This document shows, in pieces, positions 174 to 60,840 of a DNA stretch of 64,000 nt (the first letter of the stretch is position 1; every line of letters starts with the position of its first letter). Source of the stretch: Octopus vulgaris (Eukaryota). Under the pieces are notes generated by a model, which ran no database searches, was not told the DNA's origin, and was given only the letters and a program-made list of their open reading frames with translations. The stretch is from positions 115,196,001 through 115,260,000 of the forward strand of contig OX597821.1 in assembly GCA_951406725.2 (NCBI GenBank). The letters run 5' to 3'. Both the position numbers and the translations under genes were made by a program.

Positions 174-2448
174 TCACAAGCAAAGTTTATTGTCCAATGA
201 ATGAGGGGGACTCATAAGTGGGCTGATTACACCCACTGGCATAGGCCATGGACTATGGTCTCTCTTGGCTTGTCGGGTCTTCTCAAGCACAGCATATCTC
301 CAAAGGTCCTGGTCACTAGCCATTGCCTCAGTAAGGCCTAATGTTTGAAGGTCGTGCTTCACCACCTCTTCCCAGGTTTTCCTGGGTCTACCTCTTCCAC
401 AGGTTCCTTCAACTGCTAGGGTGTGACACTTTTTCACACAGCTGACCTCATTCATTCGCAACACATGACCATACCAGCGCAGTTGTCTCTTTTGCACACC
501 ACATCTGATGCTTCTTAGGTCCAACATTTCTCTCAAGGTACCTACACTCTGTCAAGTATGCACACTGACATTACACATCCAGTCGAGCATACTGGCTTCA
601 TTCCTTGCAAGCTTATGCATATCCTCAGCAGTCACGGCCCATGTTTCACTGCCATGTAGCATGGCTGTTCACACACATACATTATATAGTCTGCCTTTTA
701 TTCTGGATGGGAGGCCCTTTGTCACCAGCAGAGGTAGATGCTCTCTGAACTTTGCTCAGGCTATTCTTTTTCTAGCAGCTACACTTTCAGAGCATCCACC
801 CCTGCTACTGACTAAGTAACGGAAGCTATCAACTACTTCTAGTTTTTCTCCTTGGGATGTGACAGAAGCTGTTCTCTGCACATTTTCTGTGTTTATAGCA
901 CCTGAGCATTTGCCACATACAAAAACTATCTTCCTAGTTAGCCTTCCTTTGATATTGCTGCACCTCTTATGTATCCATAGCTTACACTGGGCATGTCTTG
1001 TGGAGTTTCTACCTACACCTTTTCTACAGATCAAGCAGGGCCATCTACCTGAAGGGATGTGTGGTGTGTCTGCCTTTCTACTTATTAAGACTTTGGTTTT
1101 AGCTAGGTTGACTCTAAGGCCCTTCGATTCTAATCTTTGCTTCCACACCTGAAACTTTTCCTCTACTTCTGATAGTGACTCAGCAATTAGAGCAAGGTCA
1201 TCAACATAGAGGAGCTACCAAGGGCATCCTGTCTTGAATTCTTCTGTTATTGCCTGGAGGACTATGATGAATAAGAGGGGGCTGAGAACTGATCTTTGGT
1301 GGTTCCCTACCCCTACTCAGAATTCTTCACTGTACTCATTGCCAACTGTCACCTTACTGACAGCATCCCTGTACATGGTTTGCACAGCTCTCACTAACCA
1401 TTTATATATCCCTAGTTTCCTCATTGACCACCAGATAAGGGATCGGGGAACCCTGTTGAAGGCTTTCTCTATGTTAATGAAAGCCAGGTACAGAGGTTTA
1501 TCTTTGGCTAGGTATTTCTCCTGCAGCTGTCTTACCAGAAATATGGCATCAGTGGTGCTTTTCCCTGGCACGAACCCCAACTGCATCTCATCTAGACTGA
1601 CTTTCTCCCTAATTAGTTGAGCTATGACCCTCTATGTGACCTTCATTACCTGATCCAACAACTTGATATCTCTGTAATTATTTGTATCTAAAGCGTCACC
1701 ATTACCTTTGTAGCAGTTGACTATTATGCTGCTACACCAGTCATTGGGTATGACACCTTCATGTATCATCTGGTTTACTATACGGGTGACTAGGCTATAG
1801 CTGACACCGCCAGATATTTTGAGCATCTCTGTGGTGATTCCTGATGGGTCAGGGGCCTTCCTTGTCTTCATACTCTTAATTGCTTTACCTACCAAGGCAC
1901 TGTCAATTCGGATAGCTGGTCCCTCTGTTGGGTTGGTATTCAGCAGACTCTCGTTCTCCCATTCATTCTCTTTATTGAGCAATCTTTCATTGTGGTGTCT
2001 CCAAACCTCTCTCTTTGCATCCTCATTTAGCGCAAATGAACCATCATCCATGTGGACACATTTCTCTCCTACGACATCTTGATTCTCCCTCACACACTGT
2101 CTTGCAACACGAAATACCTCAAGTCTTTGGTCCTCACAGTGCAGAACATTGGCAAATTTATTTTCATCTGCTTCCCCTCTGGCTAAATAAACCTGCCCCC
2201 TAGCTTCCCTTCTGGCAGTCTGATACAATTCCGTGCTATCACCGTTCTTCCAGTCCTTCCAAGCCTGTTTATTTTCTCTAATAGCCCTGTCATCAACATT
2301 GTTCCACCACCACGTTACCTTGGATCGAGAGGGGCCTTTGCACCATTCACATAGATCTGGATCAGTGGCCTTCAGTAGGTTGTCCCATAAAAAGCTCCAG
2401 TTGTGTTCCACATCATATGATGCCAAATCCCTTTCTATTTCGTCATGA
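174..2448 (-). mobile_element. 5'-truncated, frameshifted RTE-clade LINE (reverse transcriptase ORF remnant)
   Basis: Successive minus-strand ORFs give RT motifs (KAPDPSGIT, IPNDW..IIVNCYKGNGD, NYRDIKLL, QLGFVPGKSTTDAIF, AFNRVPR, GLRVNLAKTKVL) and the RTE-type C-terminus LRWYGHVLRM...GRGRPRKTW. Confidence 0.93.
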
Positions 2449-2734
2449 ACATTAATTAAGGGTAATGTTAGGAAATATGTCATACGTAAGTTAATTATAA
2501 TTTAACATTCATCAAATATCTTGGTGTTTATATAAAATAATGAAATAAATGCATATTTCCAAAAGAAAAATATTATCTGAAATTGGAATTAATTCTAGCA
2601 AACTTCCTATTTGTATATTTGCAAAGGTGAATGTTATTATCTTTTAAATGTTTATCTTCGTAATCACAAATCTACTCTGCAAAATTTCACTTTAAAAAAA
2701 TGCATATTTTTCAGAAAGTTATAAAACACATGTG

Positions 2735-7240: not shown

Positions 7241-7905
7241 TAATAATAATAATAATGATGATAATAATAATAATAATAATAATAAAATTGTATACAGTGC
7301 TCAGGTGCACCACAACTTGTCAAAAGTGCATATAAAGCATATGCAGTAATGTACAAATGTCTGGGAAGTGAACAGTGTATGAGTCAGATACATGCTTGCT
7401 TGTGTGTATGGAGGGGAGAAAATCAGGTGTAGTGTTGGCAAATCTCAGGAAGCATGGAAGTTTTGAAGGATGCAGTGCTCCGACAACTAACAACTGATGC
7501 CGGCAGTCTGTTCCATGCTTCAGCAACTCTTAACGTGAAAAAATGTTTCTGAAAGTCATGGGAGCTGTGCTGTTTTCTGACTTTGTAAACATATTCACGA
7601 GTGTTAGACAGGTAGAGTTTGAAAAGGTCCTCAGAGTCATTGTTTGTAAGATTGTTAATAATTTTATGGGTGTCTGCTAAGTCAGCTGCCAGACGTCGGA
7701 GTTTCAATGAGTCCATGCCCAGGGAAGTAAGGCGTTCAGAATATGGCAAATGCCTGATGGAGGGTATTCTCTTGGTTGCATGTCGCTGAACAGCTTCCCG
7801 ACAATTAACATCCTGGGCAAGATAGGGGTTCCAGACTGGTGATACAAATTCCAGGTGAGGTCGTACCATATCTATATAAAGCCGGAGAGCGGCTCACAAA
7901 GGAGG
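7241..7905 (-). mobile_element. CR1-like LINE 3' fragment with (TTA)n tail
   Basis: ORF 7423-7869 reads VRPHLEF..PVWNPYL...VQRHATKRIP..LPYSERL..L.LRRL...HFFTLRVAEAWNRLP; the trinucleotide tail is at 7241-7286. Confidence 0.92.
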
Positions 7906-9150: not shown

Positions 9151-9985
9151 CCCTTTTTTGCTGTTTCTGTTGAAATATGCTGCCTTTGTTTCAGTTAATT
9201 TTGAAAATAACAAAGAATTTAGTAAAATAACTTTATCGTTGTTGAGCCTTTAGCAGTGAGATTGCTCTGTTAAATGTGATGCTTATTTATTCACATTGTT
9301 TGGAATTAGTCAAACATCATTTTGTAGCTTAGAGATTTCTTAAAATAATAATAATGAAATTATTGTATACAGTGCTCAGGTGCACCACAACCTGACAAAA
9401 GTGCATATAAAGCATATGCAGTGATGTACAAATGTCTGGAAAGCGAACAGTGTATGAGTCAGATACATGCTTGCATGTGTATGGAGGAGTGAAAATCAGG
9501 TGTAGTGTTGGCGAATCTCAGGAAGCATGGAAGTTTTGAAGGATGCAGTGCTCCGACAACTAACAACTGATGCCGGCAGTTTGTTCCATGCTTCAGCAAC
9601 TCTTGGCATTAAAAAATGTTTCCGAAAGTCATGGGAGCTGTGCTGTTTTCTGACTTTGTAAACATGTCTATGGGTGTTAGACAGGTGGAGTTTGAAAAGG
9701 TGCTCAGAGTCATTGTTTGTAAGATGATTAATAATTTGATGTGATTGTTTATTTTTTCAGATTGTCATTGTAAGGTAGGCATGAGAGGCCAGATCTGGTC
9801 AGTTTGAACATAAAACGGGGAGAATATTTTGGCTGGGCATGGTCAGCTTAAATGCTAAAGGGTTAAGCTTGTGTTTGAAACATAAGTCAATATGAAATGT
9901 TTTGGAAGGGTTTAATTCAGATCGCTTTAAAACAAGGAGTTTGTATCTTAGAACCAGGGACAGTTTCAGGTGGGTTTGTATTAAA
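9151..9985 (+). mobile_element. Nested piggyBac-like MITEs (outer 9151-9985, inner about 9246-9866) containing a CR1 fragment
   Basis: Inner ends cctttagca...tgctaaagggttaa; the outer halves match the MITE bodies at 15930-16153 and 42554-42977. Confidence 0.6.
9345..9738 (-). mobile_element. CR1-like LINE 3' fragment
   Basis: Near-identical to 7287-7660 and 17555-17940, with a short (AAT)n tail. Confidence 0.9.
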
Positions 9986-10133: not shown

Positions 10134-10285
10134 ACATTTTTACTCAAATCTCTGATTCAAGTGGTTATCAAATACAAGAAAAATTTGAAGAATATTTAAG
10201 GGCTGTTTTAGCTCTTCCAAGCGCTGTATGTGAAGGTCCATCATTCGGGTATAATGACACAGCATCACGGACATGCTTCGATGGA
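10134..10285 (+). CDS. dtn: Dystrobrevin exon (EF-hand-like region): (Y)IFTQISDSSGYQIQEKFEEYLRAVLALPSAVCEGPSFGYNDTASRTCFDG
   Basis: Acceptor ttttacag (AG 10132-10133) and donor gtgagt at 10286; 152 nt, phase 1 to 0. The peptide matches dystrobrevin YIFSMISDSSG...LREVLKLPTAVFEGPSFGY. Confidence 0.95.
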
Positions 10286-14620: not shown

Positions 14621-15440
14621 TAATAATAATAATAATAATAATAATAATTGTGTACAGTGCTCAGGTGCACTACAACTCATCTAAAGTGTATATATAATCA
14701 GGTGTAGTTTCGGCGGATTTCGGAAAGCATGAGGGCCTTAAAAGATGCAGTGTCATGGCAGTCAACAACTGACGCAGGCAGTTTATTCCATGCTTCAGCA
14801 ACTCTGAGCGTGAAAAAATGTTTCCGAAAGTCATGGGAGCTGTGCTGTTTTCTGACTTTGTAGGCATGTCCACGTGTGTTAGACACATGGAGATCAAAAA
14901 GGTGTTCAGTGTTGTTGTTGGTGAGGTGGTTGATAACTTTGTGGGTGTTTACCAAGTCCGTCGCCAAACGCCGGAGCTTCAGTGAATCCATGCCCAGGGA
15001 AACAAGTCGCTCAGAATATGGTAGGTGTCTGATGGAGGGTATGCGTTTGGTTGCACGTCTCTGGACAGATTCCAGGAGGTCAATGTTCTGTGCAAGATAG
15101 GGGTTCCAAACTGATGATGCGAATTCCAAGTGTGGTCGTACCATAGCTGTATACAGTTTTAAATAGATGGCTGGAGAGCGGCTAACAAAAGACCTGCTGA
15201 GTGATGCCAAGACACCCTCGGCCTTCCTGACAATCTTAGAGATATGCTTTGACCAACGCAAATCACTGCTGACAGTGATGCCTAGGTCACGCTCGCAAGA
15301 GGATTTCTTGATATCAGTGTTGTGGAGGGAGTAAGTGAACGCAGGGTTTTTTCTCCCCAAAATGCATGGTGGTACACTTGTCCACAGCCAGTTTCAGTTG
15401 CCAGTCTGTGATCCATTGCTGCATTGTGTCTAGGTCTGAT
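14621..15440 (-). mobile_element. CR1-like LINE 3' portion (RT C-terminus) with (TTA)n tail
   Basis: ORF 14698-15360 reads ERDLGITVSSDLRWSKHI...LYTAMVRPHLEFASSVWNPYL...FFTLRVAEAWNKLP. Confidence 0.93.
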
Positions 15441-17528: not shown

Positions 17529-17967
17529 ATAATAATAATAATAATAATAATAATGAAATAATTGTATACAGTGCTCAGGTGCACCACAACTTGTCAGAAA
17601 GTGCGTATAAAGCATATGCAGTAATGTACAAATGTCTGGGAAGTGAACAATGCATGAGTCAGATACATGCTTGCGTGTGTATGGAGGGGAGAAAATCAGG
17701 TGTAGTGTTGGCGAATCTCAGAAAGCATGGAAGTTTTGAAGGATGCAGTGCTCCGACAACTAACTGATGCTGGCAGTCTGTCCCATGCTTCAGCAACTCT
17801 CAGCGTTAAAAAATGTTTCCGAAAGTCATGGGAGCTGTGTTGTTTTCTGACTTTGTAAACATGTCCACGGGTGTTAGACAGGTGGAGTTTGAAAAGGTGC
17901 TCAGAGTCATTGTTTGTAAGATGGTTAATAATTTTATGGGTGTCTGCCAAGTCAGCTGCCAGACGTG
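17529..17967 (-). mobile_element. CR1-like LINE 3' fragment
   Basis: ORF 17696-18016 includes RLAADLADTHKIINHL...HFLTLRVAEAWDRLP; (AAT)n tail on the + strand. Confidence 0.9.
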
Positions 17968-18433
17968 ACAAATGAAGCTGAAGGGATAGAGAAAAGACAC
18001 CTTCCTTCCTGGTCAAGCTCTCATCAGTTTTCTTTTAAGCTGCACCTTGAATGTAAAATGAGGAGAGAAAGGGAAGTTCTAGCTCCCAGTGAATTTGTAA
18101 AAAGATGGGTGACTGTAGCAAAACTGGTTTAGAGTGAATGGTCCTACACTAAACCTGCACCTGTATGTTGGAGAGCAGGAGAGAGGGATCAGAATTTTGG
18201 TGGTCAGGGTAGTCGTGGAACTGTGGGGTTCCTTGATTGACCCTAGTTGGAATTTCTCCTTTAATCAGGAGGATTACATCATTCATGCTATTACTTTGTA
18301 TCTATACTTTTATTGCATTTCACTCTCTTTTCCATTTCTTTTTCACCCATCATTTTTCTTAATCCCCACAAAAATTGTTGTCTGCCTTTGTGATTTCCCT
18401 CTCATCTATGTCCCTGTGGCTAATAAAAAAGAA

Positions 18434-22520: not shown

Positions 22521-23378
22521 TAATAATAACAATAATAATGGTAGTAATGATTTCAAATTTTGGAACAAGGCCAGTAGTTTTAGGGGAGGCGGTAAGTTGA
22601 TTATATTGATCCCTACCCCCAGTGGTCAACTAGTGGTTATTTAGACCCATGTGGTTCAGCCTGCCTGCCACCTTATATTTATAAGGAATATTAAAATATT
22701 ATCCCCCTAAAAAAAAAAATAGATAGTTTGTATCTAACTCAAAGCTAATCTCACTCTTCTCCGTTAACCATGATGCCGGGTTTCACCAAGAATTCTGAAA
22801 CTACTCAACTGTGATGCTAAATGTCTTTTTGTCAGTAAAAGATAAACTCCCATGATGCTCTTTTCACCCCCACCCACCCCTCTTGCTCCAAATTCTGCAT
22901 TGATTACAGTAATTCCAATTATTTTTCTGCATCATTGAACATTTATGTTTTGTCTGATTCTTCTTTGGCTGTCCTCACCAAAATCAATATTCTTCTAATT
23001 TGGTTGTTTTCTTTCTTTTTGTTCCTTTGTTTGTTTGTTTTGTTTTTTCTTCTATTAATTAAAAAAATAAATAAACACCCAAAGAAATAAAAACCGTTGT
23101 CTTCATTGCAGAGAACTTCAGAAATTTATTTATTTGTTTATATTTGTTTTGTTTTTTTTCTATTTTTATTGTAGAAGATTCTTGAAGAGTTAGGTTTTGG
23201 TCAAATGGTAAAAGTAAGTCCACTGCTATGATCAAATGTATTTTAGCTTGACCACTCAACTGTCCATTAGCCTAACATGCATTGTCCCTAGTTTTCCAAA
23301 CCAAACAGATGACCATTCTTCTGGTTCTCCTTCTGCTTTTCTCCAACTAAATAAAATGCATTCTACAAATGATTGCCT

Positions 23379-38264: not shown

Positions 38265-39990
<1,726 letters not shown>

Positions 39991-40532: not shown

Positions 40533-40641
40533 CGAGAAAAAGTTAATGTGAATGACTTCCTAAATGTTCTGATGTCTGACCCAGGTCCCCAATGTCTCAT
40601 GTGGTTACCAATTCTTCATCGAATGAGTCAAGCAGAAAATG
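40533..40641 (+). CDS. dtn: Dystrobrevin exon: REKVNVNDFLNVLMSDPGPQCLMWLPILHRMSQAEN
   Basis: Acceptor ttaaccag and donor gtgagt at 40642; 109 nt, phase 0 to 1. Matches [35 protein letters not shown]. Confidence 0.96.
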
Positions 40642-41551: not shown

Positions 41552-41764
41552 CCAGTACCGCTGCCATAGTCTCCTTTAGAGAGACTTAGAAATTTTAATA
41601 TTTCTAATATTTAATTTGTATTAAATCTGATGGATGTTTAGCTAACGATGACGGTCATTATATAGCATCCATCATATTTATTAAACATTCTTTTCTATAT
41701 ACCCAGCGCATTGTTTTCTATACATGCAGCTATACACCCAGTGCATTGTTTTCTATCCACCCAG

Positions 41765-41931
41765 CTGTACACCCAGTTCAGTGTGAGGGTTGCAACCGAG
41801 AATCATTTATGGGGTTTCGCTATAAATGTCAGCGATGCTATAACTACCAATTGTGTCAAGATTGTTTCTGGAGAGGTCGGACATCAGGAAATCATACAGA
41901 CTCTCATGAAATGAAGGAATATTTATCCTAC
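41765..41931 (+). CDS. dtn: Dystrobrevin ZZ zinc-finger exon: (A)VHPVQCEGCNRESFMGFRYKCQRCYNYQLCQDCFWRGRTSGNHTDSHEMKEYLSY
   Basis: Acceptor cacccag and donor gtaagt at 41932; 167 nt, phase 1 to 0. Carries the dystrobrevin ZZ motif CxxC...GFRYxCxxCxNYQLCQDCFWRG. Confidence 0.97.
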
Positions 41932-42553
41932 GTAAGTACTAACAGCTACTAACCCTGCCATCTGACTTCAATCCTTCTTATTTTCTGTTTATTTGAGACC
42001 AGTTTTTGCTGGACACATCTCAGCTTAACTTTCAAATTGATTTCAATTTTTCCTCTCCCCATCCTTTTTTTTAAATCTCTCACACTTTGTGACATTTATT
42101 CCTTCTACCCTGGAACATTATCCCCCTGGAATCTCCTTTCTGCTCATGACATTCCTGCAGGTATTTCAACAGGACACTAATGGCATCAATCTCACCTGTC
42201 TCCAAGATCCTGCAATGGCCATGGGTATCTGTTCTTCCTCTTGACTCAACAAGTAAAAAAAAATAAAACTTCCCCACCAAAAGACTCTTATGCTGCTGTA
42301 GACTTCTTAGTCTACTTATAATGCAAGTGTTAGCTAATACCTACTGATATAACTAGTAGCAGTAGTAGTAGTGGTAGTTGTTATTGCAATAACACCATCA
42401 CTAACAAATGTGGTAATTAAACCTTTCTGTTTTAATTAATTTTAAAAATAATGAAGAATTTAGTAAACTAACATTGTCATTATTTTTAGCTGGTGTTTGG
42501 AACATAAACTGATATGAAATTCTGGTTGAGAGTTTTAGTTTAGATCACTTTAA

Positions 42554-42977
42554 CCCTTTTGTTCCCATATTTGTTGAAATACATTGCCTTTGTTTAACCC
42601 TTTCATTACCATATTTATTTTGAGATGCTCTGTGTTACTTTCGATTAATTTGAAATATAAAGAATTTAGTAGAATAACTTTATTATTAAGCTAGTGTTAG
42701 GAACATAAATTGTAACTAAGGTTTGGTGGAAGGTTTAAATTCAGAACTTTTGAAAACAAGGCATTTGTACTACAGAGCCAGAGCTTGTTTCAGCTGGGTT
42801 GGTATCAAAAGGGTTAAGTTGATTTTGAAAATAATGAAGAATTCAGTAAAATATCTTCATCCATTATGAAACTGCTGTTTGGAACCTAAATTAACATGAA
42901 ATTCAGGTCACTTGAAAAGAGGAAGCATCATAAAAAGAGGGGCAAGAATAGTTTCGGGCAAGTTAGCATCTAAAGGG
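42554..42977 (+). mobile_element. Nested piggyBac-like MITEs (inner 42598-42813, flanked by TTAA)
   Basis: Inner element ttaa|ccctttcattacc...ggtatcaaaaggg|ttaa sits inside ttaa|cccttttg...taaaggg. Confidence 0.8.
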
Positions 42978-44658
42978 TTCATAACATCAATGATGGTTGT
43001 GTGTATGAATGATTTGTGAGATAGGACCAAAGCTTCAACCCATTCATAGAAGAGTTTGGGCCTTCGTAGTTGCTTGAATCAGTTCCACTCCCTGACCTTT
43101 TGTGTTCAGCCATGGAAACTAGCGAGGGCTGTCTCCAAGGAGGGCCATCTCCAGGGAGAGCATCCGATTGTAGAAAATATGCCTTTATGAATTCCCATGT
43201 CTGACTTATACCAACATAGCAAAGTGGGCTTAAAAAGTGAAAAAAATGGAAAGTGTGTATGTGTGATAAGATTTCTATGAGCCAACAAGGGAATCTGCAT
43301 GTAATCAATTGATCTGTCCATTAAAAAATTTTTTTTTATATATTTTCCAACCCATACCAACACGGAAAATGGACATTAGATGATGAGTGTCTCTAAGAAT
43401 ATTTTTTTCACTCAAGACAATTTCTGCCTCGTATATATTTCAATGTCTGATTGAATATGAACATCTTAACTACAAATGTACATACCTGTATTTCTGGTTG
43501 GGTATAAATAGAGGGAGACCTAGCTGCTATTTCTACCAGGTCAAGCAACCATATAACTGCTCCCTGGTTGGCACTGTTTTTTTTACTCTTTTACTTGTTT
43601 CAGTCGTTTGACCGTGGCCATGCTGGAGCACCACCTTTAGTCAAACAAATCGACCCCATGACTTATTCTTTGTAAGCCTAGTACTTATTCTATCGGTCTC
43701 TTTCGCTGAACTGCTAAGTTATGGGGACGTAAACACACCAGCATTCGTTGTCAAGCAATGTTGGGGACAAATACAGACACACAAACATACACACCCACAC
43801 ACACACACAACAGGCTTCTTTCAGTTTCCATCTACCAAATCCACCCACAAGGCTTTGGTCAGCCTGAGGCTATAGTGGAAGACACTTGCCCAAGGTGCCA
43901 CGCAGTGGGACTGAACCCAGAACCATGAGGTTGGTAAGCAAGCTACTTACCACACAGCCTATAAAGTATTGTGTAATGGGTCAGATAAAGCCTGGCTGTA
44001 ATAATACCTGTGTGATGGGGGTGGGTAACGTGGTGGTGGCGGTGGGTGCTTTGAGATAAATATTTTAACCTGCAGTTGGAAAATCAGTGTTTTCACTGTT
44101 GGCTGTCTGTTTACAATGTTTTCATTTGATTGGATATTGTGTGCTACGCATAGTGTTATCTTACCCCGTGCTCTTATCACTTTACATTTCTCTTATAACA
44201 AACAACCCAGTGTCTATATCATGACACAGTTTCTTTACTCGGATAATATCTCCCCTCAAAAAAAAAAAAAAAATCCTTCTTAGTATTCAGAAAGCTTTTC
44301 TGCCATGCATTACTGAATATGAGTGTGTGTCTGTGTGCCTATCACTAAATCTAGATAATTACTATCTTAGACATATTATATATTTTTAAACACATACATG
44401 CATGTGTATACTCACATATATAATATATATATATACACATATATAAATATATAGATTTATGTATTTGACTGTGCTCTTTTTCTTAATACATTTAGAAATC
44501 ATTTTCAGTTTTACTAGTCATGGACGACCAAAAATATCTAAACAAAATAACATCTTTGCATTTATTTTGAGAAATATAATGTTCAAAGCTAAGAATGTCA
44601 TTTAAATCCATTTAAAATCCATTTTCACATTTTGTCTCTTTATTTTTGACTCCGACAG

Positions 44659-44667
44659 GGAAGCACA
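44659..44667 (+). CDS. Candidate 9-nt in-frame dystrobrevin microexon (GGA AGC ACA, Gly-Ser-Thr)
   Basis: ttttgtctctttatttttgactccgacag|ggaagcaca|gtaagt; phase 0/0, which fits the intron between the ZZ exon and the KSPAK exon. Confidence 0.55.
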
Positions 44668-44884
44668 GTAAGTTACACCTTAGACTTTGTTTCTTGTTTT
44701 TGAACTTGTAAAATTAACTACAACATAGTAAATAGTAGTTACTAAACTCCTCTAGTCTTATAAATAGTAGCTCATAAGTAACAACATTCACAACTAATGC
44801 CTGTCTGACTTTTATTTTTCTTCGTATTTATGCATCTGAAATCTTCCATATAACATCTTGTGTCTATAATATTTCCAAAGTCAC

Positions 44885-54919: not shown

Positions 54920-55047
54920 AAATCTCCAGCAAAACAGATTGGTCATTCATTGAAAAAGTCATTCCGCTGTGTACCAAGCAAACCAAATCATAAAATTCCT
55001 ACTTTTTCTGACGTTCCAGAAAACCGAATTGATTTAACAAATATTGT
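54920..55047 (+). CDS. dtn: Dystrobrevin exon: KSPAKQIGHSLKKSFRCVPSKPNHKIPTFSDVPENRIDLTNI(V)
   Basis: Acceptor gttttgtag and donor gtaagt at 55048; 128 nt, phase 0 to 2. Matches KSPAKKLTNALSKSLSC...PEKPLNLAHIV. Not shown in the ORF track. Confidence 0.93.
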
Positions 55048-55416
55048 GTAAGTGTTTCTTCAGTTTCGTATTAATCAAATTCTTTGCCTTTGTAAATATA
55101 TTCTCTGCGATAAATGTGCACATATATTCATCCATGCTTGTATTTACATATGAGATTCTTATTTTGGTTGAGTGAGTCTCTGGCTGCTCTCATGCTTTTC
55201 CTGTGTATTCAGACAGTCACCAGGTAAGTGATGCCATAACTTGCCAGATGAATCTGCTGTGCACATACAGGTGAAACTGCAAAGCGGAAAGACACTGAAT
55301 TGCCTGAAATATATTAGTAATCTCAGCTATGGTATTGAGCACTCTTCTGACAGTCAACACTATACATATATACAAATATATATGTTTGTTTATATTTATT
55401 TCACTCTCTCTCTCTA

Positions 55417-60744: not shown

Positions 60745-60840
60745 GCCACCAACCCCCGTAATGGTGCACAACGATCTCCAAGAGGCTTGTAGTCATTCTA
60801 TTGACTTGTCTTCAGTTGACAGTGGTCCAACTTCAAGAAG
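60745..60840 (+). CDS. dtn: Dystrobrevin exon: (V)PPTPVMVHNDLQEACSHSIDLSSVDSGPTSR(R/S)
   Basis: Acceptor tttttctcttttcttctgaag and donor ag|gtttgt; 96 nt, phase 2 to 2, open frame. Resembles vertebrate PPRPVTSMND..SHS..SS. Confidence 0.8.

What the first reader, a model, noticed from the sequence alone, without database searches (positions are those of the whole stretch)
44625..44675. Candidate 9-nt microexon (GST) immediately after the ZZ domain
A strong pyrimidine tract, CAG, exactly 9 nt and a consensus GTAAGT occur in repeat-free intron sequence, with phase matching the flanking exons. Inclusion gives ...EYLSY-GST-KSPAK. Vertebrate alpha-dystrobrevin has a 9-nt alternative exon one intron further downstream, so this would be an independently placed microexon adding Ser/Thr residues; gene predictors would probably miss it.
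Basis: partly seen in the sequence, partly recalled or inferred. Interest (0 to 1): 0.7.

Follow-up and report, generated by a model that had tools for sequence, protein, structure and literature searches.

The report
Octopus dystrobrevin nine-base optional exon
A nine-base optional exon in the octopus dystrobrevin gene, already present in public gene models, adds three amino acids just after the zinc-finger domain and likely fine-tunes how that domain sits against the rest of the protein.

Summary
The site is there and is almost certainly a real cassette microexon, but it is already annotated. Window 44659-44667 lies between CAG and GTAAGT in phase 0. It is the only AG-[Gly-Ser-Thr]-GT site in the 13-kb intron after the ZZ exon of Octopus dystrobrevin. 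RefSeq models already hold both forms: GST in 5 of 7 O. sinensis isoforms and 3 of 6 O. bimaculoides models. The window's exons splice exactly into these proteins. So 'gene predictors would miss it' is wrong. GST was seen only in Octopus. It is absent from 1 Argonauta and 7 cuttlefish-type proteins. Lingula and Lineus carry unrelated optional inserts at the same junction, which points to repeated independent gains. One unexpected point: inclusion makes the ZZ-to-helix spacer exactly as long as in dystrophin (18 of 18 dystrophin-type sequences). The other lineages' inserts (4 and 12-13 residues) do not. Inclusion reads and tissue pattern were not seen. The UGC motif typical of neuronal eMIC microexons is missing. 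It is an ordinary kind of feature with one testable twist.

The parts
44659..44667 (+). 9-nt cassette microexon, phase 0/0, encodes Gly-Ser-Thr
   Evidence: GST in 8 Octopus database proteins
44594..44658 (+). 3' splice region: 63-nt AG-exclusion zone, candidate branch point TTCAC (A at 44627, picked by eye), pyrimidine tract, CAG; no TGC within about 100 nt and no CTAAY
44668..44673 (+). 5' splice site GTAAGT (exon side ACA rather than consensus CAG)
41765..41931 (+). upstream exon holding the ZZ zinc finger (PF00569, E 5.5e-13), ends in phase 0
   Evidence: contigs of 3 putative RNA runs lie on 41764-41931 with 0 differences and stop there
41938..41953 (+). twin ACTAAC motifs just after the ZZ donor (possible STAR/QKI-type element; untested)
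44793..44798 (+). single ACTAAT motif 126 nt downstream of the microexon (possible STAR/QKI-type site; near chance level)
   Evidence: 31 ACTAAY on the + strand of the 64-kb window
54920..55047 (+). downstream exon (KSPAK...TNIV), matching vertebrate alpha-dystrobrevin exon 8
10134..10285 (+). dystrobrevin EF-hand region exon
23175..23213 (+). 39-nt alternative exon (13 aa) in the EF-hand region
40533..40641 (+). dystrobrevin exon before the ZZ exon
60745..60840 (+). next dystrobrevin exon (PPTPV...PTSR)

Best explanation
Bases 44659-44667 are a nine-base optional exon of Octopus dystrobrevin, present in some RefSeq isoform models and absent in others, which adds Gly-Ser-Thr right after the ZZ zinc finger and likely works as a spacer switch that shifts the ZZ domain against the segment that follows. 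Shown: the splice signals, the frame, both isoforms in models of two Octopus species, the position at the ZZ boundary, and that inclusion gives the same spacer length as dystrophin. Inferred: that the models rest on spliced RNA reads; that the exon arose in the Octopus lineage by exonisation of intron sequence; that the downstream segment is an amphipathic helix; that inclusion is tissue-regulated, with STAR/QKI-type ACUAAY elements a better lead than the neuronal eMIC code; and that the spacer change tunes partner binding in the dystrophin complex.
For: Both forms are modelled in O. sinensis (5 GST, 2 skip) and O. bimaculoides (3 GST, 3 skip). All four combinations of this exon with the 39-nt exon, spliced from the window, are exact substrings of database proteins. 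It is the only AG-GST-GT site in the intron. The donor read-through codes VST and the acceptor extension hits a stop, so neither explains GST. The human ZZ construct 2E5R ends at exactly the residue matching the exon end. Spacer length: the Leu of L[RK]NK[FL] is residue 19 (E=1) in 18 of 18 dystrophin-type sequences (10 distinct). The matching Leu is residue 16 in 295 of 376 dystrobrevin-type sequences and 19 in the 8 GST forms. Offset +3 is the only register with a positive BLOSUM62 mean (4.3), and hhalign opens a 3-residue gap. Unrelated optional inserts at the same junction occur in Lingula (4 aa, 6 of 8 isoforms) and Lineus (12-13 aa, 10 of 13).
Against: No inclusion read or contig was seen: one search showed contigs ending at 41931, but their loose letters were not among the rows printed. 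The three O. bimaculoides models listed with current NCBI records all skip the exon; the three GST models came only through the eukprot copy. Both O. vulgaris models skip it. It is absent from 1 Argonauta and 7 cuttlefish-type proteins, so it is young or rarely included. The Lingula and Lineus inserts have other lengths, so the match to dystrophin may be chance at a tolerant junction. There is no tissue data and no structural model.
Confidence: 0.55

Rival explanations
1. The exon is real but nearly neutral: a young, weakly included, frame-preserving exon that is tolerated because it falls in a flexible linker at a domain boundary.
For: Seen only in the genus Octopus. Skipped in both O. vulgaris models and in the three current O. 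bimaculoides models. The junction accepts inserts of 3, 4 and 12-13 residues in different phyla, and 6 other dystrobrevins have a spacer one residue longer.
Against: The same three residues are modelled in two Octopus species. 275 of 302 proteins spanning the junction have no insert at all, across molluscs, arthropods and nematodes, so spacer length is normally held fixed.
Confidence: 0.33
2. It is a neuronal, eMIC (Srrm234)-dependent microexon, a convergent counterpart of the brain-enriched 9-bp exon 9 of vertebrate alpha-dystrobrevin. This overlaps with the best explanation and differs in the regulator.
For: Size 9 nt, long AG-exclusion zone (63 nt) and a long pyrimidine tract fit the eMIC pattern in PMC8797185. 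Vertebrate exon 9 is included in about 40% of some brain isoforms and mostly excluded elsewhere (PMC2796648). Recurrent neural exon gain in the same genes is common (bioRxiv 10.64898/2026.09.05.749416).
Against: No TGC within about 100 nt of the acceptor and no CTAAY branch motif in 44460-44658; both are listed features of eMIC exons. The 51-93 nt AG-free zones of four other exons of this gene are as long, so that feature does not discriminate.
Confidence: 0.3
3. The exon is an annotation artefact or splicing noise picked up from a few reads.
For: It is missing from the O. vulgaris models and from the current O. bimaculoides models. No read was seen here.
Against: Models of two species' genomes give the same GST. 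The window has a unique, well-formed site for it.
Confidence: 0.07

Closest known systems
RefSeq O. sinensis dystrobrevin beta isoforms X1, X3, X4, X6, X7 (XP_036361390.1, 392.1, 393.1, 395.1, 396.1) and O. bimaculoides XP_014775208.1, 226.1, 234.1
   Same: The same exon: these models already contain GST at this junction.
   Different: Nothing in sequence. The records say nothing on tissue, level or function.
Vertebrate alpha-dystrobrevin (DTNA) 9-bp exon 9 (PMC2796648, PMC1790709; passages seen)
   Same: Same gene family, same size, optional, frame-preserving, close to the ZZ domain.
   Different: It lies one intron further downstream, after exon 8. The octopus junction there is phase 2, whereas the microexon's is phase 0. 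Not orthologous by position.
Optional inserts at the same junction in Lingula anatina (4 aa) and Lineus longissimus (12-13 aa) dystrobrevin RefSeq models
   Same: Same junction; present in some isoforms and absent in others.
   Different: Different length and sequence. The Lingula insert also starts with Gly. Their genomic DNA was not examined, and part of the Lineus variation (Q/QQ) looks like tandem acceptors.
Dystrophin ZZ-to-helix spacer (PDB 9C3C chain D, 8YT8 chain E)
   Same: The included form aligns without a gap across ZZ end and downstream segment; GST faces a Thr-Thr-Ser stretch.
   Different: In dystrophin the three residues are fixed in all 18 sequences examined, not optional.
eMIC/SRRM3/4-dependent neural microexons (PMC8797185; passages seen)
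   Same: 3-27 nt class (size limit recalled), frame-preserving, long AG-exclusion zone.
   Different: Lacks UGC near the acceptor and a CUAAY branch point; neural specificity untested.

Membership tests
Dystrobrevin gene | EF-hand region plus ZZ domain plus coiled coils, closest to dystrobrevins | tested here: met
   Pfam EF-hand_2, EF-hand_3 and ZZ on P0001. Best PDB match is dystrobrevin 9c3c_V (E 1.8e-194) against dystrophin at 5e-59. Window exons are identical to O. sinensis/O. vulgaris dystrobrevin.
Alternative cassette microexon | Very short exon bounded by AG and GT | tested here: met
   9 nt, CAG and GTAAGT.
Alternative cassette microexon | Frame-preserving and stop-free between the flanking exons | tested here: met
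   open frame with and without it.
Alternative cassette microexon | Inclusion and skipping isoforms both on record | tested here: met
   Database models: 8 GST and 7 skip among the 15 members of cluster 1. These are predicted models, not reads.
Alternative cassette microexon | Junction reads for inclusion | tested here: inconclusive
   contigs end at the ZZ donor; their onward letters were not displayed.
eMIC/SRRM-dependent neural microexon | UGC close to the 3' splice site | tested here: not met
   Nearest TGC at 44557, about 100 nt upstream.
eMIC/SRRM-dependent neural microexon | Strong CUAAY branch point | tested here: not met
   No CTAAY in 44460-44658.
eMIC/SRRM-dependent neural microexon | Long AG-exclusion zone and pyrimidine tract | tested here: met
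   63 nt and 76%, but not unusual for this gene.
eMIC/SRRM-dependent neural microexon | Neuron-specific inclusion that depends on eMIC | not testable with these tools
   The runs offered had no tissue labels and were contigs only.
Orthologue of vertebrate alpha-dystrobrevin exon 9 | Same intron position | tested here: not met
   The vertebrate exon follows the Met319 exon, which matches 54920-55047; the microexon precedes it.

The most novel reading that the evidence does not exclude
Octopus re-evolved, as a regulated microexon, the three spacer residues by which dystrobrevins differ from dystrophins, so that splicing toggles dystrobrevin's ZZ module between a dystrobrevin-type and a dystrophin-type geometry and changes its partners. 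The same intron would then be a hotspot for independent regulatory gains: octopus, brachiopod and nemertean cassette exons, and the tetrapod brain promoter exon 7b.
Probability: 0.12. Interest if true: 0.62.

Novelty: already known. Interest (0 to 1): 0.27.

Why it matters
As an exon it adds little: public models already hold it, and microexons at domain boundaries are a well-described class. It is a clean small case of repeated exon gain around one domain of the dystrophin-complex scaffold. It also offers a natural isoform pair, differing by three residues, for testing what the fixed spacer difference between dystrophin and dystrobrevin does. The dystrobrevin chain in 8YT8 covers only the EF-hand region, so that question looks open.

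Tried and rejected
(1) Whole genome: none held, so no genome-wide background or second-species DNA. (2) RNA runs: no holder on record as RNA; 20 rows were guessed RNA, all Logan contigs without tissue. (3) 4 of 24 runs were laid on 41700-44870. Dispersed repeats swamped the tables (2644 loose-end rows hidden), so inclusion versus skipping could not be read. The three putative RNA runs gave no cover at 44562-44773, which is expected for a 9-nt exon and is no evidence. The DNA run X20 had low cover there and no rows shown, so flank conservation is untested. (4) No structural model of either isoform was obtained; the helix assignment is inference. (5) GST from donor read-through or a shifted acceptor: rejected. 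(6) Gain of a kinase motif: the [ST]-x-[RK] motif only shifts, SPAK is kept, and one new S-x-x-x-T appears; too weak to use. (7) Orthology with vertebrate exon 9: rejected by position. (8) Three singleton inserts (P0039, P0091, P0094) were set aside as probable model artefacts; two end in Q, like acceptor extensions. (9) Earlier findings: 3 look-ups, nothing. (10) One search used a wrong exon end (40642); it was corrected, and only its motif and acceptor lists are used.

Full report
Observation. The sequence reads CAG (44656-44658), nine bases (44659-44667) and GTAAGT (44668-44673), behind a tract that is 76% pyrimidine with a 63-nt AG-free zone. A strict post-hoc microexon pattern finds only this site on either strand of the window, and 1 of 100 shuffles of the host intron gives a hit. 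A looser pattern finds 11 sites, so the motif alone is suggestive only.

Gene. The window holds the middle of an Octopus dystrobrevin gene on the + strand, with exons at 10134-10285, 23175-23213, 40533-40641, 41765-41931 (ZZ), 54920-55047 and 60745-60840. The last exon reads LQEACS, as in O. sinensis and O. vulgaris, not LQDACS as in O. bimaculoides. The introns around the microexon are 2,727 and 10,252 nt. No genome was held.

It is already in the databases. The top hit for the ZZ exon, XP_036361393.1, contains EYLSY-GST-KSPAK. Of the 15 members of its cluster, 8 have GST and 7 skip. O. sinensis: X1, X3, X4, X6 and X7 include it; X2 and X5 skip. O. bimaculoides: XP_014775208.1, 226.1 and 234.1 (held only as eukprot copies) include it; XP_014775216.1, XP_052825880.1 and 881.1 skip. 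Both O. vulgaris models skip (one is identical to X5), and so does the Argonauta model. Splicing the window's exons in all four combinations of microexon and 39-nt exon gives exact substrings of these proteins. The site is the only AG-GST-GT in the intron; donor read-through gives VST and acceptor extension a stop. That such RefSeq isoforms rest on spliced RNA alignments is my background knowledge, not something checked here.

RNA. Contigs of three putative RNA runs from three studies lie on 41764-41931 without a difference and leave the reference there, which confirms the donor. Their onward letters were not displayed, so inclusion was not observed (4 of 24 runs laid). No tissue labels were available.

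Distribution. Of 360 proteins screened, 41 lacked the ZZ-end motif, 17 ran into intron or ended there, and 302 spanned the junction. Of these 302, 275 had no insert, 8 had GST (all Octopus), 6 a 4-residue insert (Lingula, 6 of 8 isoforms) and 10 a 12-13-residue insert (Lineus, 10 of 13); 3 singletons were set aside. Seven cuttlefish-type proteins that span the junction (2 named Sepia, 5 unnamed Logan) all skip. The chiton, bivalve, gastropod and chelicerate isoform sets examined show no insert. Absence from models is weak evidence for a minor exon. In 16 of the 17 read-through proteins the sequence after the ZZ end starts with Val, as a GT donor read in frame would give, so the intron position looks old (inference). 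The simplest reading is independent gains in an old intron.

Vertebrate comparison. [quoted passage not shown] It places Met319 in exon 8, past the ZZ domain, and describes a brain promoter exon 7b in intron 7. In the alignment to 9c3c_V, Met319 falls in the segment matching 54920-55047 (counted from residue 293). So the vertebrate microexon is one intron downstream, and the octopus exon likely sits in the counterpart of intron 7. PMC1790709 (passages seen) confirms exon 9 in zebrafish.

Mechanism. Splicing: a 9-nt exon with a consensus intronic donor, a non-consensus exon end (ACA) and a candidate branch point 31 nt upstream would be expected to be optional. PMC8797185 (passages seen) lists UGC near the acceptor and CUAAY branch points for eMIC-dependent neuronal exons; neither is present. 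ACUAAY motifs, recalled as the QKI/STAR site and in line with the listings, occur as a pair at 41938 and 41948 and singly at 44793. With 31 such motifs on the strand the single one is near chance, and the pair was noticed post hoc.

Protein: the insert follows the last residue of the human ZZ construct 2E5R. With GST the octopus protein aligns without a gap to dystrophin across this region, whereas against alpha-dystrobrevin it opens a 3-residue gap. Counting from the conserved Glu, the downstream Leu is residue 19 in 18 of 18 dystrophin-type sequences (10 distinct) and 16 in 295 of 376 dystrobrevin-type sequences (47 had no match). It is 19 only in the 8 GST forms. Offset +3 is the only register with a positive mean score, and hhalign places a 3-residue gap. 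In the rabbit complex the dystrophin ZZ domain binds the juxtamembrane parts of beta-dystroglycan and sarcoglycans (PMC12750041, passages seen), so spacer geometry could matter. Three codons is also a common microexon size, and the other lineages' inserts are 4 and 12-13 residues, so coincidence is the likelier reading of the length match. No model of either isoform was obtained.

Print. Searches for dystrobrevin+microexon (1 paper, unrelated passages), microexon+octopus (3 listed) and dystrobrevin+octopus (2 listings, not opened) found no description of this exon. The library lacks most subscription papers. bioRxiv 10.64898/2026.09.05.749416 (passages seen) includes O. bimaculoides and reports frequent recurrent gain of neural exons; it does not mention dystrobrevin in its main text, and its supplements were closed.

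Verdict. The exon is real (about 0.93), already annotated, apparently restricted to Octopus, and of untested regulation and function. The best reading is a spacer switch at the ZZ boundary (0.55), with near-neutrality the main rival (0.33). Interest 0.27.

Noticed in passing
window 23175-23213: A 39-nt optional exon in the EF-hand region. It is present and optional in Octopus and in cuttlefish-type proteins (61% identity over 13 aa), so it is older than the microexon; already in RefSeq models.
   Followed up: partly
window 55213-55223: An 11-nt candidate exon with a good pyrimidine tract, CAG and GTAAGT, in the intron matching the one that holds vertebrate exon 9. Inclusion would shift the frame and stop 7 codons after the preceding exon, giving a possible poison exon or a truncated isoform. 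It is in none of the stored proteins.
   Followed up: partly
window 41695-41784: The acceptor of the ZZ exon is tandemly duplicated (35-nt period, 2.6 copies). This gives AG sites at -58, -35, -23 (frame-shifting) and +12 (in frame). RNA contigs use the annotated one.
   Followed up: partly
proteins P0019-P0029, P0038, P0042, P0044, P0058, P0151-P0159, P0256-P0262 (junction matching window 55047/60745): Bivalves carry an optional 12-13-residue insert at the junction where vertebrates have exon 9: one type in mussels, oysters and scallops, another in clams. Both introns around exon 8 thus gain exons repeatedly.
   Followed up: no
window 41938-41953: Twin ACTAAC motifs 6 nt after the ZZ donor, resembling a bipartite STAR/QKI element. 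One search lists no difference there in the related DNA run X20 (only the best-supported rows were shown).
   Followed up: partly
window 174-2501 (- strand): Broken ORFs that look like a LINE reverse transcriptase (recognised by eye, not searched). Shorter LINE-end-like pieces lie near 7423-7893, 9496-9756, 14698-15393 and 17696-18034.
   Followed up: no
window 38679-39615 (+ strand): Two adjacent ORF pieces that look like a Tc1/mariner transposase split by a frameshift (by eye).
   Followed up: no
protein P0361: An unnamed 1031-aa dystrobrevin representative with about 11 tandem copies of the second half of the ZZ domain; either an exon tandem repeat or an assembly artefact.
   Followed up: no
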